Positions 5,545 through 38,177 are shown, counted from the stretch's first letter. The stretch is 64,000 bases of DNA from a virus (IMGVR_UViG_2974502414_000001); one strand, 5' to 3'. A program made the numbers and translations. The notes: generated by a model not told the origin, from the letters alone.

Positions 5545-5813
5545 TGAACATTAGAGAGGTTCACAATGTCGTTAAGAGTGCTAAGAGCAAACTCCTGCAG
5601 GAGCAGGCTCACCCAACGGATAACCTCATAGAGCAGTACATCACAGAGGAGCTACACAGACGCACACAGGGAAGTGGAACAATACAGATGAACAATAACA
5701 CCGCTTCATATAGTAATGGCTCATATGGTATCTTAGAAGAGCTTAGAGAAGCTTATGACCTATCTTCATTATCCACTGAAGAGATTAAAGAACTACTACA
5801 AACATTTGTTTAA
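5544..5813 (+). CDS. hypothetical protein (89 aa)
   Basis: ORF track; ATG overlaps previous stop (TGAATGA). Confidence 0.45.
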   Translation: MNIREVHNVVKSAKSKLLQEQAHPTDNLIEQYITEELHRRTQGSGTIQMNNNTASYSNGSYGILEELREAYDLSSLSTEEIKELLQTFV

Positions 5814-5831
5814 ATTATTTTATCAAAACGC

Positions 5832-5861
5832 TTTACAATCTTTTAGTTTGTATGGTATAAT
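5832..5861 (+). promoter_or_regulatory. promoter TTTACA-18-TGgTATAAT
   Basis: TTTACA 5832-5837, TATAAT 5856-5861. Confidence 0.55.
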
Positions 5862-5888
5862 GAACTTAACAAATTAAAAGAAAAGGAA

Positions 5889-6077
5889 ATGATGAACATG
5901 AGAAACTTATTAGAGCAGGAACAATTAGAAAAAGATGTAAAAGACATTATTTGGGTATTAGATAGAATGATTGCTAAAGGAGAACAATACACTGAAGCTT
6001 ACGATATTTTAGTTAACAAATTAGAAAGACAAGAAAAAAGAATCGTAGAAATAAAAAAACAAAATGGAATATTTTAA
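5889..6077 (+). CDS. hypothetical small protein (62 aa)
   Basis: ORF track; RBS aaaggaaatgatgaacATG. Confidence 0.5.
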   Translation: MMNMRNLLEQEQLEKDVKDIIWVLDRMIAKGEQYTEAYDILVNKLERQEKRIVEIKKQNGIF

Positions 6078-6087
6078 ATAACAAAAT

Positions 6088-6116
6088 AGAGGGAATAAAA
6101 TCCCTCTTTTATTTTT
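6088..6116 (+). terminator. intrinsic terminator AGAGGGA-ataaaa-TCCCTCT plus T-run; ends the plus-strand early block
   Basis: read directly. Confidence 0.75.
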
Positions 6117-6248
6117 ATCCTATTATATAATTTTTTTATATTATACGGGGGCAGGGGTAAAATGCCACTCAATGGGGGTGGGTCTATATACCCCTATGGT
6201 CTACCCAGGTACTTATTTTTTGGGGAAAATTATGAAAATAAATATTTA

Positions 6249-6376
6249 AAAGTCAACACCTAAAATATAGAAAGTAAGTCAACACCCTATATTAAAAGTC
6301 AACATTATAACCCCTCCCTGTAAGTCAATAATTTATAGTACAAATAGACAACCTCTAAATATAAAGTCAACATACC
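6249..6376. repeat. iteron array: AAGTCAACA x4 perfect (6251, 6277, 6297, 6365) plus variants AGTCAATA (6323) and AGACAACC (6345), spacing about 20-26 bp, preceded by G-rich tracts 6120-6230
   Basis: read directly; ORF-free; bounded by convergent terminators. Confidence 0.7.
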
Positions 6377-6380
6377 TAAA

Positions 6381-6408
6381 ATAAAAAAGAGGGAAATTAA
6401 ATCCCTCC
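6381..6408 (-). terminator. intrinsic terminator for minus-strand block (hairpin GAGGGAtttaatTTCCCTC plus T-run on minus strand)
   Basis: reverse complement reading. Confidence 0.7.
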
Positions 6409-6410
6409 TC

Positions 6411-6647
6411 TTAGGTATTATTAACAAACTCTAATTCATGTATAGTAATCATATCCATTCCATAGAAATCTCTTGGGTCTCCTTTAATGAACTCTTGCTC
6501 TCCTCTATGGTTTGTTTCCTCTTTATAACCTTCTTCTTTAATACGTTTAATTAAGTTCTCCTTATCTGTATATATCTTATCTTCTCTAAAATGGAAGTTA
6601 TCTTCATAAGGTTCACAATTATCATGTTCTACTTGGTATAGTTTCAT
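6411..6647 (-). CDS. hypothetical protein (78 aa)
   Basis: ORF track. Confidence 0.5.
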   Translation of the reverse strand: MKLYQVEHDNCEPYEDNFHFREDKIYTDKENLIKRIKEEGYKEETNHRGEQEFIKGDPRDFYGMDMITIHELEFVNNT

Positions 6648-6648
6648 A

Positions 6649-7134
6649 TTACTTATTCTCCTTGATTTTTTTTAGATAGTTTTCATAATAAGCTCTTGAT
6701 TCTTGTGTTAACTTTTCTCTTTCTTCTCTAGACCATTGTAATGCTCCCCAAAATTTCTCATAATTTTCTTTTGATAAGTCACCTAGTGGACTGCCCTTAG
6801 GTAAGTCTTTAGTAGCTTCTTTTTGTATTTTTTCTCTTTCTTTTTTAATTTCATCTAGTTTTTCTTGATTACCTTTAAATGTGACTCTTGGTTTGGATAG
6901 TAAGAATTCTAGTATTTCTTCATCTGTAAATACCTTTGCATAACTATCTTTCCATGTAGTATCTTCATAAGAGTGTTTACCTGTATCTTCTAATTCTTTT
7001 AACGCCAATTTTGAGTAACCTTTTGCATCTATAAGCCCTCTAGTATACATACTTGCAGGGTCTAAGAATTTTATTTGGTTCTCATAATTAATAATACTTG
7101 TTTCGAGTTTAAGTTTGGCTTGTTCTTTGTTCAT
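6649..7134 (-). CDS. hypothetical protein (161 aa)
   Basis: ORF track; tight packing with neighbours. Confidence 0.55.
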   Translation of the reverse strand: MNKEQAKLKLETSIINYENQIKFLDPASMYTRGLIDAKGYSKLALKELEDTGKHSYEDTTWKDSYAKVFTDEEILEFLLSKPRVTFKGNQEKLDEIKKEREKIQKEATKDLPKGSPLGDLSKENYEKFWGALQWSREEREKLTQESRAYYENYLKKIKENK

Positions 7135-8179: not shown

Positions 8180-8661
8180 TGTGAGTCCTCCTTATATTCT
8201 TTATAGCTCTTAATGGCTATTTTACAAATACCTCTATTTACAGCAACAAATACTATAAATGATAATAGTGTTATAACTGCTCTTACATCCCCTGTAAAAG
8301 GTAATGATTGAAAGAGCAAATAGTTTTCTAAAACACTAATAGCTGTAATAGTAGTTAGATATAATATAGATAATAAGTAATCCTTTAATTTTAGTTTAAC
8401 AAATGGTTTTTTGTGCTCACCTGTTCTTACAATACCATAAAGTATTATGAACCACATAACAGGTACTAACTGTATAATAAAATCATTGTCTACATTTAAT
8501 GCATGTAGAGCGTAAATAATAACTGCAGGAATACCTATAATGAATGCTAGAAATACATAAAATATAATTAACATTATAGGAAGGGCTACAAGAAAACCTA
8601 GACCTTGTTTTGAATACTCTAATGTGTTTTTACCTAGGAACTTAAAAAATGTTTTATTCAT
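8176..8661 (-). CDS. multi-pass membrane protein (161 aa)
   Basis: ORF track; 4 hydrophobic segments. Confidence 0.55.
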   Translation of the reverse strand: MNKTFFKFLGKNTLEYSKQGLGFLVALPIMLIIFYVFLAFIIGIPAVIIYALHALNVDNDFIIQLVPVMWFIILYGIVRTGEHKKPFVKLKLKDYLLSILYLTTITAISVLENYLLFQSLPFTGDVRAVITLLSFIVFVAVNRGICKIAIKSYKEYKEDSQ

Positions 8662-9085
8662 CTTCTTCCTCCTTGGAATTACTTTCTGTAATTGTAATTT
8701 CTAACATATTATTGTAATAATCATTCTTTTGATTGATATTATAGTTATCATTGTATTCATTAAAGTCTACATAAATATATTCATTTGCGTCATTTTCATA
8801 AATAATATCTATAGCTGTAATATCTGAATATGCTGTAATCATTTCATAAGCGTTCGTATTATCAGGATAAGCAAAACCAACTTGAGGTATTTCCATAGGC
8901 TTATCAATAAGAATACCGAAATAAGTACAGTGACGTGTTCGACTTATACTTGAAGTCCCTTTATATGTACCATAGTAATCTATACCTTCTGTAATACCTG
9001 ATATATGGAACCTGCTTACGTCTTTAGGCTCTAATCTTACAACATCGCAATTCTCTAATACTAAATCAATATATTTGATATTCAT
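8654..9085 (-). CDS. hypothetical protein (143 aa)
   Basis: ORF track. Confidence 0.55.
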   Translation of the reverse strand: MNIKYIDLVLENCDVVRLEPKDVSRFHISGITEGIDYYGTYKGTSSISRTRHCTYFGILIDKPMEIPQVGFAYPDNTNAYEMITAYSDITAIDIIYENDANEYIYVDFNEYNDNYNINQKNDYYNNMLEITITESNSKEEEDE

Positions 9086-37700: not shown

Positions 37701-37824
37701 AATTAATCAATTCCTTTTCTCTTTTATTTGATAATTTAACTATATACTATATTGATAAATAAGTCAACAGTTTTCTAAAAATAATTTAAATTATTTTGAA
37801 GAATACTTTAATATCAAGGGTTAC

Positions 37825-38130
37825 AAGAGAAAAAGTACGTATTTAGAAAATAAGGAGTACTCCTATTATATATAATTATATTCTGATATAGAGTAATAAA
37901 TAATATTAAATATATAATTATAATTAATAAGGTTGGGAAAATTGATATAAACATAACTGATACTGCTTATAGATACTCAGTATAAAAGTAAAATCCCTTA
38001 GTATCAGTACTTACAGGCAAAAAAGTACGTATTTAGAAAATAAGGAGCTCTCCTATTATAGTTATATATATTTATTACTATTATTAATTACTATTTAAAT
38101 ATATAATTATAATTAACAATGTTAGAAAGT
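37825..38130. repeat. two about 110-bp direct-repeat units (37825-37940; 38015-38130), each with a 10-bp palindrome (GGAGTACTCC vs GGAGCTCTCC); inverted repeat CTGATACT/AGTATCAG (37956 / 38002) between them
   Basis: read directly: AAAAAGTACGTATTTAGAAAATAAGGAG(TA/CT)CTCCTATTATA occurs twice, 190 bp apart. Confidence 0.7.
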
Positions 38131-38177
38131 CAACAATAGTATAAATAAAAAAGTGACTACTTAAAGTCACTCAATAA

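What the first reader, a model, noticed from the sequence alone, without database searches (positions are those of the whole stretch)
6120..6410. Iteron array (AAGTCAACA x4-6) with G-rich tracts at the switch from plus-strand early genes to the minus-strand block
An about 290-bp ORF-free segment sits exactly between convergent terminators (6088-6116 plus strand, 6381-6408 minus strand).

It holds four perfect AAGTCAACA copies and two variants (AGTCAATA, AGACAACC) in one orientation, spaced 20-26 bp apart. Unusual G-runs precede them (GGGGGCAGGGG, GGGGGTGGG) in an otherwise AT-rich genome.

This architecture is typical of replication origins or initiator/partition binding sites. It could also mark the right boundary of the long terminal repeat.

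The same TTGTCAACA core recurs as the extended -35 of many minus-strand promoters (15785, 20126, 20209, 23895, 26741, 32741). A DNA-binding factor recognising that box could couple the two.
Basis: partly seen in the sequence, partly recalled or inferred. Interest (0 to 1): 0.6.

Follow-up and report, generated by a model that had tools for sequence, protein, structure and literature searches.

The report
Promoter-box repeats at phage terminal-repeat border
The repeated 9-base motif is real and conserved in four genera of Staphylococcus Twort-like phages, but it reads as a cluster of host-type promoter "-35" boxes sitting just outside the end of the long terminal repeat rather than as a replication origin.

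Summary
The window is Staphylococcus phage 676Z (Kayvirus). AAGTCAACA occurs four times exactly (6250, 6276, 6296, 6364) plus one credible variant (6322), between two convergent terminators. The whole 140-kb unit genome has only seven copies. The second "variant" (6345) is not conserved.

The annotated long terminal repeat (LTR) ends at 6205, inside the known 12-bp border repeat CCCAGGTACTTA. So the G-runs lie inside the LTR and the array lies outside it.

On the minus strand the motif is TGTTGACTT, a sigma-A -35 box (TTGACT). The same 9-mer is the -35 of a published RNA-seq-supported promoter. In Baoshanvirus most copies read TTGACA instead.

Only the LTR-nearest box has a -10 at 15-18 nt, and this holds in seven lineages from four genera. 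That box sits 43-45 nt from the LTR end in three of those genera, although the spacer sequence differs.

A minus-strand RNA (snc004) is already reported over this region in phage K.

GC skew, transcription geometry, absence of DnaA boxes and irregular spacing all argue against an origin. The literature's predicted origin lies at about 37.8-38.1 kb.

Best reading: a conserved leftward promoter with reiterated -35 boxes at the LTR border. What the extra boxes do, and whether the module is linked to LTR end formation, is unresolved.

The parts
6088..6107 (.). Bidirectional intrinsic terminator. It ends the + strand LTR gene treU and is the likely stop for leftward transcripts coming from the array.
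   Evidence: scores the stem-loop on both strands. It equals t19 of phage 515A1. In phage K it is listed as a used terminator at 8370 on both strands.
6137..6168 (.). Conserved G-rich core TATATTATACGGGGGCAGGGGTAAAATGCCAC, inside the LTR. Its ACGGGGG begins 61 nt before the LTR end.
   Evidence: The block from ATATTATAC through GCCAC is identical in Kayvirus and Silviavirus, although the flanks differ. 184DA has one substitution. In Sepunavirus and Baoshanvirus the first G-run is replaced by a C-run. Function unknown.
6174..6182 (+). Second G-run, GGGGGTGGG, inside the LTR.
   Evidence: Conserved in Kayvirus and Silviavirus but replaced in 184DA and DH2.
6204..6215 (.). 12-bp LTR border repeat CCCAGGTACTTA. 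The annotated L-LTR ends at 6205, after CTACC.
   Evidence: Unique exact match in the window. LTR annotation of JX080302.2. The mirror copy TAAGTACCTGGG sits at the R-LTR start. Published as a hallmark of Twort-like phages (PMC7596081).
6229..6234 (-). -10 hexamer CATAAT of the LTR-proximal leftward promoter. The predicted start is about 6222, some 17 nt outside the LTR end.
   Evidence: TTGACT-16-CATAAT matches 10 of 12 consensus positions. A -10-like hexamer at 15-18 nt from the proximal box recurs in 7 lineages despite different spacers.
6250..6258 (-). Box 1, LTR-proximal: AAGTCAACA, which reads TGTTGACTT on the minus strand. It is the -35 of the conserved leftward promoter and lies 44 nt from the LTR end.
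6276..6284 (-). Box 2, a -35-type box with no usable -10.
6296..6304 (-). Box 3, a -35-type box with no usable -10.
6322..6330 (-). Box 4, variant AAGTCAATA. It belongs to a 26-bp unit that is absent from K, 812, Staph1N and GH15. A TATAAT follows at a spacer of only 13 nt.
6364..6372 (-). Box 5, distal, 11 nt downstream (minus-strand sense) of the bofL terminator. Its -10 is weak (TCTATT); in GH15 it is TATATT.
   Evidence: Present in every Kayvirus-like genome examined.
6384..6412 (-). Intrinsic terminator of the minus-strand gene block (bofL).
   Evidence: Equals t20 of phage 515A1.

Best explanation
The "iterons" are reiterated host sigma-A -35 boxes (TGTTGACTT, i.e. TG + TTGACT + T) on the minus strand. 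They lie in the unique DNA just outside the right end of the LTR.

The LTR-nearest box, with a -10 hexamer 16 nt downstream, forms a conserved leftward promoter. Its predicted start is about 6222. RNA polymerase starting there would cross the LTR end (6205) and the conserved G-rich core, then stop at the bidirectional terminator 6107-6088. The product would be a C-rich non-coding RNA of about 130 nt, lying within the published snc004 interval of phage K.

The 2-4 boxes upstream of this promoter lack -10 elements. They most likely act as extra docking sites for polymerase/sigma, or for a factor that reads -35 boxes. Their number changes through unequal recombination between the repeats.

**Shown:** the sequence identity of the boxes, the conserved promoter architecture, the conserved spacing to the LTR end, and conservation across genera.

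**Inferred:** that RNA polymerase binds the boxes, the exact start site, and any role of the transcript or of the extra boxes.
For: 1. **Same 9-mer in promoter contexts.** The only two other intergenic copies in the 140-kb genome both sit in promoter contexts. Window 37761 is the -35 of promoter p79 (TU17) of phage 515A1, which was used for the RNA-seq-derived matrix. Window 38127 is TTGACT-16-TATAAT.
2. **Fits the phage's own promoter style.** TG directly upstream of TTGACW is the second most common context among promoter-like sites in this window, 11 of 41. The sister motif TGTTGACAA has a -10 in 6 of its 7 copies.
3. **The tolerated change keeps -35 identity.** Baoshanvirus has one TGTTGACTT and three TGTTGACAT, i.e. 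TTGACT against TTGACA.
4. **The proximal box has a -10; the others do not.** The LTR-proximal box has a -10 matching at least 5 of 6 positions at 15-18 nt in 5 of 7 lineages. The remaining two match 4 of 6. The hexamers are CATAAT, TATAAT, TATATT, TAAATT and TATACA, and the spacers are otherwise unrelated. Chance is about 0.09 per site. Only 1 of 17 internal boxes does as well.
5. **Sharp motif edges.** The 9-mer is invariant in 31 of 31 unique sites, including the first A, which was not part of the search pattern. Flanks carry little information.
6. **Conserved geometry.** The distance from the LTR end (CTACC) to the proximal box is 43-45 nt in Kayvirus, 184DA, Silviavirus and Sepunavirus. 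Spacer identity is only 0.40-0.53.
7. **Published transcription.** Minus-strand transcription of exactly this intergenic region is reported as snc004, phage K 8370-8665. The minus-strand terminator at 8370 is scored as used (PMC9241854).
Against: - Two promoter surveys list no promoter here: PMC7698491 Table S2 and PMC11598898. The proximal promoter lacks the TRTG extension typical of this phage's strong promoters, so it is weak at best.
- snc004 was defined by a predictor plus 5-fold coverage over the whole intergenic region. It could be read-through from bofL.
- Boxes without a -10 have no established role for sigma-A. Yet they are as strictly conserved as the proximal one, including the flanking TG and T, which ordinary promoters do not require.
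- The predicted RNA has no convincing conserved fold (consensus energy -6.65 kcal/mol with a positive covariation term) and no Rfam match.
- The geometry differs in Baoshanvirus: 80 nt rather than 44.
Confidence: 0.55

Rival explanations
1. The boxes are binding sites for phage proteins that recognise the LTR border, such as a terminase or nicking complex that cuts and duplicates the LTR in concatemers. Together with the G-rich core on the other side of the cut, they would form a two-part site comparable to lambda cosB or P1 pac. Their resemblance to -35 boxes would be incidental or secondary.
For: - The spacing is fixed across the cut. Core to LTR end is 58-61 nt and LTR end to proximal box is 43-45 nt, in Kayvirus, 184DA, Silviavirus and Sepunavirus. 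Core to box is 104 nt in DH2. The intervening sequence is largely unrelated, and the adjacent array shows frequent indels.
- The array is always on the unique side, next to the border.
- In Kayvirus-like phages a single inverted box, TGTTGACTAAT, with no -10, lies 30-108 nt outside the left LTR border. So the boxes point into the LTR from both sides, as the 12-bp border repeats do.
- The flanking TG and T are conserved beyond what promoters need.
Against: - The left-border box is absent in Silviavirus and Sepunavirus, and its distance to the border varies.
- Box number and spacing vary.
- The Baoshanvirus geometry differs.
- The conserved -10 next to the proximal box is not explained by this model.
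- No small terminase subunit or border-binding protein is known in these phages, and there are no binding data.
Confidence: 0.2
2. The array is an operator cluster for a phage-encoded transcription factor that recognises the TGTTGAC-type -35 boxes of early and middle promoters. Such a factor was proposed for shut-off of early operons. The array would be its highest-density binding locus, used for control of the border promoter or for titration.
For: - The TGTTGAC heptamer is shared with many minus-strand promoters.
- The strict conservation of TG upstream of the hexamer is not required by sigma-A.
- Finstrlova et al. speculate about a factor binding the conserved -35 region and name the DNA-binding proteins gp126 and gp201 (PMC9241854).
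Against: - No such factor or site has been demonstrated.
- The spacing is not in helical phase.
- The motif is not palindromic, whereas Cro/CI-type proteins usually bind palindromes.
Confidence: 0.1
3. The array is a set of replication-origin or partition iterons bound by an initiator.
For: - Direct repeats lie in an ORF-free, AT-rich segment.
- Two further copies of the 9-mer flank the literature's putative origin region at 37.7-38.2 kb.
Against: - The boxes are 9 bp long with spacing of 20, 26 and 42 bp, and copy number varies from 2 to 5.
- There are no DnaA boxes and no adjacent initiator gene.
- The site shows convergent transcription and a local maximum of cumulative GC skew, while the minimum is at 38-40 kb.
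- The two copies near the putative origin are ordinary promoter -35 boxes.
Confidence: 0.05
4. The repeats have no function of their own. They are short direct repeats kept alike by unequal recombination, and they matter only as deletion and duplication hotspots, as the GenBank note for phage 812 implies.
For: - AY842850 annotates the four 9-mers as "possible recombination site".
- Related phages differ by whole repeat units. The 26-bp unit in 676Z is absent from K, 812, Staph1N and GH15. SAP23 and O1-102 carry a different unit set. Stau2 has a 265-bp duplication.
Against: - The 9-mer is invariant in 31 unique sites across four genera, while the flanks are close to random.
- At least two boxes are always retained.
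- The position of the proximal box and its -10 are conserved.
Confidence: 0.07

Closest known systems
Sigma-A (sigma-70-type) early promoters of Kayvirus (TTGACW - 17 nt - TATANT; Kornienko et al. 2020, PMC7698491)
   Same: - The box contains TTGACT, the second most used -35 hexamer of this phage.
- The identical 9-mer is the -35 of promoter p79.
- The proximal box has a -10 at 16 nt.
- Like many real promoters of this phage, the distal box directly follows a terminator.
   Different: - Four of the five boxes have no -10.
- There is no TRTG extension.
- The flanking TG and T are invariant.
- Neither promoter survey listed a promoter here.
Phage T7 concatemer junction: a promoter (phiOR) aimed at the terminal repeat, with polymerase pausing at the junction needed for DNA maturation
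   Same: A promoter is placed at a fixed short distance outside a terminal-repeat border and is aimed across it. The terminal repeat must be duplicated from a single-copy junction.
   Different: - The promoter here is of host type, not phage-polymerase type.
- No pause site has been identified.
- There is no functional evidence of coupling.
- The LTR is 8.4 kb against 160 bp in T7.
Lambda cosB R-sites and P1 pac hexamer clusters (repeated terminase-binding boxes beside the cut site; textbook knowledge)
   Same: Short repeated boxes lie within about 45-170 bp of a sequence-specific genome-end cut, with conserved spacing to the cut and a second conserved element on the other side.
   Different: - No terminase binding is known.
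- The boxes equal the promoter -35 consensus.
- Box number and spacing are loose.
- The ends are LTR-type and apparently blunt, not cohesive or headful.
Iteron-type origins (lambda ori, P1 oriR, R6K and pSC101 plasmids)
   Same: Same-orientation direct repeats in an ORF-free, AT-rich region.
   Different: - The boxes are 9 bp rather than 17-22 bp.
- The spacing is out of phase.
- There are no DnaA boxes and no initiator gene nearby.
- The skew and transcription geometry are those of a terminus, not an origin.
snc004 of phage K (Finstrlova et al. 2022, PMC9241854) and the "possible recombination site" features of phage 812 record AY842850
   Same: Same locus. snc004 covers the whole intergenic region on the minus strand. 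The four annotated 9-bp features are these boxes.
   Different: Neither source identifies the boxes as -35 elements, maps a promoter, or notes the cross-genus conservation and the fixed distance to the LTR end.

Membership tests
Sigma-A (sigma-70-type) promoter | -35 hexamer close to TTGACA | tested here: met
   All boxes carry TTGACT (5 of 6) on the minus strand. Baoshanvirus copies carry TTGACA.
Sigma-A (sigma-70-type) promoter | -10 hexamer close to TATAAT, 16-18 nt downstream of the -35 | tested here: inconclusive
   Met by the LTR-proximal box only: CATAAT at 16 nt, 10 of 12 overall, and conserved in 7 lineages. Not met by boxes 2-5 in 676Z.
Sigma-A (sigma-70-type) promoter | A transcript starting about 7 nt downstream of the -10 | not testable with these tools
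   The only evidence is published minus-strand coverage, snc004 8370-8665 in phage K. No start site has been mapped, and no promoter is listed in two surveys.
Iteron-type replication origin | Three or more direct repeats of about 17-22 bp, spaced in helical phase | tested here: not met
   The information content is confined to 9 bp. Spacing is 20, 26 and 42 bp, or 19, 31-33 and 68 bp in other lineages.
Iteron-type replication origin | Adjacent DnaA boxes and/or an initiator gene | tested here: not met
   No TTATCCACA with at most 1 mismatch lies in 5900-6600. The neighbouring genes are treU and bofL. The putative Rep gene is about 80 kb away.
Iteron-type replication origin | Strand-composition switch of origin polarity (cumulative GC-skew minimum) and divergent transcription | tested here: not met
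   There is a local skew maximum at about 6 kb and a minimum at 38-40 kb. Transcription converges here. Gene orientation confounds the skew signal.
Iteron-type replication origin | Origin firing in vivo | not testable with these tools
   Needs marker-frequency analysis or 2D gels.
Twort-like LTR border | 12-bp inverted repeat TAAGTACCTGGG / CCCAGGTACTTA at the ends of the non-redundant genome | tested here: met
   CCCAGGTACTTA lies at 6204-6215, and the annotated L-LTR end is 6205. The mirror copy sits at the R-LTR start. The border lies 44 nt to the left of the array, not within it.
cos/pac-type terminase recognition site | Repeated boxes at a conserved distance from the cut site | tested here: inconclusive
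   The proximal box lies 43-45 nt from the LTR end in three genera and in 184DA, but 80 nt away in Baoshanvirus. The LTR ends outside Kayvirus are inferred from the shared GGAATT...CTACC termini.
cos/pac-type terminase recognition site | Binding by the small terminase subunit or another packaging protein | not testable with these tools
   No such protein is identified in these phages, and there are no binding data.
Structured non-coding RNA family | Conserved secondary structure with covariation, or a match to a curated family | tested here: not met
   No Rfam match with E-value below 0.2, and all hits far below gathering scores. The consensus fold is -6.65 kcal/mol with an unfavourable covariation term, and only the terminator stem covaries. 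Single-sequence z-scores are -2.2 (minus strand) and -0.8 (plus strand).

The most novel reading that the evidence does not exclude
The module is part of the still unknown machinery that defines and duplicates the long terminal repeat of Twort-like phages. The module runs: G-rich core, 61 nt, LTR end, 44 nt, promoter box.

Two versions are possible.
- RNA polymerase sitting at or transcribing from the border promoter marks or opens the right LTR end for nicking and strand-displacement copying. Its downstream footprint edge, about +20, coincides with the LTR end. This would be a host-polymerase analogue of the T7 concatemer-junction mechanism.
- The core and the boxes form a two-part pac-like site.
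Probability: 0.2. Interest if true: 0.75.

Novelty: new member of a known kind. Interest (0 to 1): 0.42.

Why it matters
Kayviruses are the main therapeutic phages against Staphylococcus aureus. How they, and SPO1-like phages in general, generate their 5-12-kb terminal repeats is unknown.

This work re-reads a repeat array that had been annotated only as "possible recombination sites". It is a conserved promoter-box module locked at a fixed distance from the LTR end in several genera. That gives a concrete, mutable target for testing two things:
- whether transcription or polymerase binding is coupled to genome-end formation;
- where the reported small RNA snc004 starts.

It also removes a false origin candidate. 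The composition data and the literature both point to about 38 kb instead.

If the module is only a weak sRNA promoter with spare boxes, the finding is ordinary.

Tried and rejected
- **Rfam scan of 5700-6800, permissive threshold.** Only chance-level hits.
- **RNA folding and alignment folding of the predicted minus-strand RNA.** No conserved structure beyond the terminator.
- **Small ORF across the border.** MPLNGGGS..., 6162-6263 on the + strand, has a Shine-Dalgarno-like AGGGG upstream. It has an in-frame stop at codon 10 in SAP23, and its length and sequence differ in 184DA and Silviavirus. It is not coding.
- **DnaA boxes.** None.
- **Late promoter on the + strand at 6134-6143.** TTTTATATTA matches TGTTATATTA at 9 of 10 positions. 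It lacks the TG present in all 12 published late promoters, and it is weaker in other genera. Not adopted.
- **Second minus-strand promoter-like site, GTGGCA-17-TATAAT (6168->6140).** It is conserved because it lies inside the core, but its transcript would be only an AT-rich leader plus the terminator. Not adopted.
- **G-quadruplex on the + strand.** Four G-tracts are present in Kayvirus and Silviavirus. They are not conserved in 184DA, DH2, Sepunavirus or Baoshanvirus.
- **Sigma-54-type reading of TGGCAT...CTGC.** Wrong spacing. From my own knowledge, S. aureus is not known to have sigma-54.
- **Mirror-symmetric "boxes on both LTR flanks" model.** The left-flank box is confined to Kayvirus-like phages.
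- **IMG/VR pattern scan for two 9-mers within 36 bp.** It returned mostly unrelated contigs and was uninformative. The scan for the G-core found only two Twort-like contigs.
- **Literature.** Full-text searches found no paper describing the 9-mer. The 2007 phage 812 rearrangement paper is not in the held library.

Full report
**Identity of the window.** The region 5600-6900 is 100% identical to Staphylococcus phage 676Z (JX080302.2, genus Kayvirus). Window position equals record position minus 2242. That record was annotated by the group that determined the ends of Twort-like phages. [quoted passage not shown]

Position 6205 lies inside CCCAGGTACTTA (6204-6215), which is unique in the window. 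The mirror sequence TAAGTACCTGGG sits at the start of the right LTR. This 12-bp inverted repeat is a published hallmark of Twort-like LTR borders (PMC7596081). The finding's segment therefore straddles the LTR end. The G-runs lie inside the LTR and the repeat array lies outside it.

**Check of the observation.**
- AAGTCAACA occurs exactly at 6250, 6276, 6296 and 6364. The window holds 7 copies against 0.86 expected, and no shuffle reached 7.
- I rebuilt the 140.2-kb unit genome from the window and three further fetches. It contains only these 7 copies, all in the same orientation.
- AAGTCAATA at 6322 is a genuine variant. The homologous unit reads AAGTCAACA in SAP23 and O1-102.
- TAGACAACC at 6345 is not conserved in any relative and is not a member.
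- The two convergent terminators are real and correspond to terminators t19 and t20 of phage 515A1.
- The G-runs give a local GC of 0.52 in a genome of about 0.29.

**What the motif is.** On the minus strand the repeat reads TGTTGACTT. That is the -35 hexamer TTGACT with TG upstream and T downstream. Four lines of evidence tie it to sigma-A promoters.
- The other two intergenic copies in the genome are promoter -35 boxes. Window 37761 is the -35 of p79, the RNA-seq-supported promoter of transcription unit 17 in phage 515A1. Window 38127 is TTGACT-16-TATAAT.
- TG upstream of TTGACW is a frequent context among promoter-like sites of this window, 11 of 41.
- In Baoshanvirus BS1 the homologous array has one TGTTGACTT and three TGTTGACAT. 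The one change tolerated is the one that interconverts the two functional -35 hexamers.
- Only the LTR-proximal box has a -10 at promoter distance, and it has one in every lineage examined. Kayvirus has CATAAT at 16-17 nt, 184DA and Silviavirus have TATAAT at 15 nt, Sepunavirus has TATATT at 16 nt, Baoshanvirus has TAAATT at 17 nt, and DH2 has TATACA or TATATA at 16-18 nt. The spacers are otherwise unrelated. The chance of a 5-of-6 match is about 0.09 per site, and only 1 of 17 internal boxes reaches it.

**Conservation.** The array is present, in the same orientation and in the same convergent intergenic region, in several groups:
- Kayvirus: K, 812, Staph1N, GH15, SAP23 and O1-102.
- Unclassified Twortvirinae: 184DA, DH2 and Stab23.
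- Silviavirus: Stau2 and SSP49.
- Sepunavirus: Terranova.
- Baoshanvirus: BS1.

Across 31 unique sites the 9-mer is invariant, including the first A, which was not part of the search pattern. Flanking positions carry almost no information.

Copy number ranges from 2 to 5 and changes by whole units. Examples are a 26-bp unit in 676Z that K, 812, Staph1N and GH15 lack, and a 265-bp duplication in Stau2. This fits the GenBank note "possible recombination site" on the same four 9-mers in phage 812.

**Geometry.**
- From the LTR end (CTACC) to the proximal box is 44 nt in Kayvirus, Silviavirus and Sepunavirus, with 43 in 184DA and 45 in SAP23. The spacers are only 0.40-0.53 identical.
- From the G-rich core (ACGGGGG) to the LTR end is 58-61 nt.
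- In DH2 the core-to-box distance is 104 nt.
- Outside Kayvirus the LTR ends are inferred from the shared termini GGAATT...CTACC.
- Baoshanvirus differs, at 47 + 80 nt.

With this spacing the predicted start (about 6222) lies about 17 nt outside the LTR. From general knowledge of open complexes, a polymerase there would cover DNA up to about the LTR end.

**Published transcription data.**
- Finstrlova et al. report snc004 on the minus strand of phage K at 8370-8665, which is exactly this intergenic region. They score the 8370 terminator as used on the minus strand.
- Kornienko et al. and the 2024 phage K study list no promoter here. Any promoter is therefore weak, or the signal is read-through.

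**Against an origin.**
- Cumulative GC skew has a local maximum here and its minimum at 38-40 kb.
- The literature's candidate origin repeats map to window 37830-38047.
- There are no DnaA boxes.
- The boxes are 9 bp long and out of helical phase.

**Other readings tested.**
- There is no Rfam family and no conserved RNA fold.
- The small ORF across the border is broken in SAP23.
- A single inverted box lies outside the left LTR border in 676Z, K, SAP23 and Stab23, which suggested a mirror-symmetric border system. It is missing in Silviavirus and Sepunavirus.

**Verdict.** The origin interpretation is not supported.

The best-supported description is a conserved leftward sigma-A promoter with reiterated -35 boxes, locked at a fixed distance from the right LTR end. 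It probably gives rise to the reported small RNA.

Two points remain open. One is why boxes without a -10 are conserved so strictly. The other is whether the fixed geometry reflects a role in LTR end formation. Those are the interesting residue of the finding.

Noticed in passing
window 37701-38177: The literature's putative phage K origin region consists of two tandem units of about 190 bp. Each carries the 28-bp repeat AAAAAGTACGTATTTAGAAAATAAGGAG followed by a GGAG..CTCC hairpin. The region is bounded by the genome's only other intergenic TGTTGACTT boxes: 37761 (the -35 of p79) and 38127 (TTGACT-16-TATAAT, directly after terminator 38148-38170). The cumulative GC-skew minimum of the window lies here.
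   Followed up: partly
L003 1461-1468 (676Z record 140060-140067); also L141 517, L142 438, L143 522: A single inverted box, TGTTGACTAAT, with no -10, lies 30-108 nt outside the left LTR border. It is present in 676Z, K, SAP23 and Stab23 although the surrounding sequence differs. It is absent in Stau2 and Terranova.
   Followed up: yes
L141 553-632 (phage K record about 139752-139831): 35-bp tandem repeats abut the left border of the R-LTR in phage K. Each carries a partial copy (TAAGTACCT) of the 12-bp border repeat. This is known from Botka et al. 2019, who suggest a role in replication and packaging.
   Followed up: partly
L144 7001-7062 (Stau2 record about 105000-105061): In Silviavirus Stau2 a 7-bp tandem repeat, (GCAAGTA)x7, directly precedes the inferred left LTR border CAGGTACATG|GGAATTT. 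The Kayvirus 12-bp border repeat itself is not conserved at either Stau2 border. Only the terminal GGAATT...CTACC is shared.
   Followed up: partly
L005 714-1018 (Stau2) versus L008 714-753 (SSP49): Stau2 carries a 265-bp insertion that duplicates the 40-bp proximal promoter unit (GTGAGTAATATTATATAACTTATTATTAAAAGTCAACATTA). It also adds a TTGACA-type box.
   Followed up: no
L145 11365-11590 (Terranova): In Sepunavirus the first G-run of the core is replaced by a C-run (ACGCCCCGTTATAAATTGCCA). An inverted G-core-like copy (CCCCCTCCCCGTTATAC) lies on the far side of the array. The two share the direct repeat CCCCGTTATA.
   Followed up: no
window 6162-6263 (+): A 33-codon ORF (MPLNGGGSIYPYGLPRYLFF...) with a Shine-Dalgarno-like AGGGG upstream spans the LTR end. 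It is interrupted by a stop at codon 10 in SAP23, so it is unlikely to be a gene. The 184DA record annotates a probably spurious CDS (184DA_234) over the same region.
   Followed up: yes
window-wide; PMC7698491 Tables S2 and S3: Many terminators of this phage are followed at once by the -35 of the next promoter, for example ...TTTTTTTGTTGACA and ...TTTTTTTATTGACA. The distal box at 6364-6372 follows the bofL terminator in the same way.
   Followed up: no
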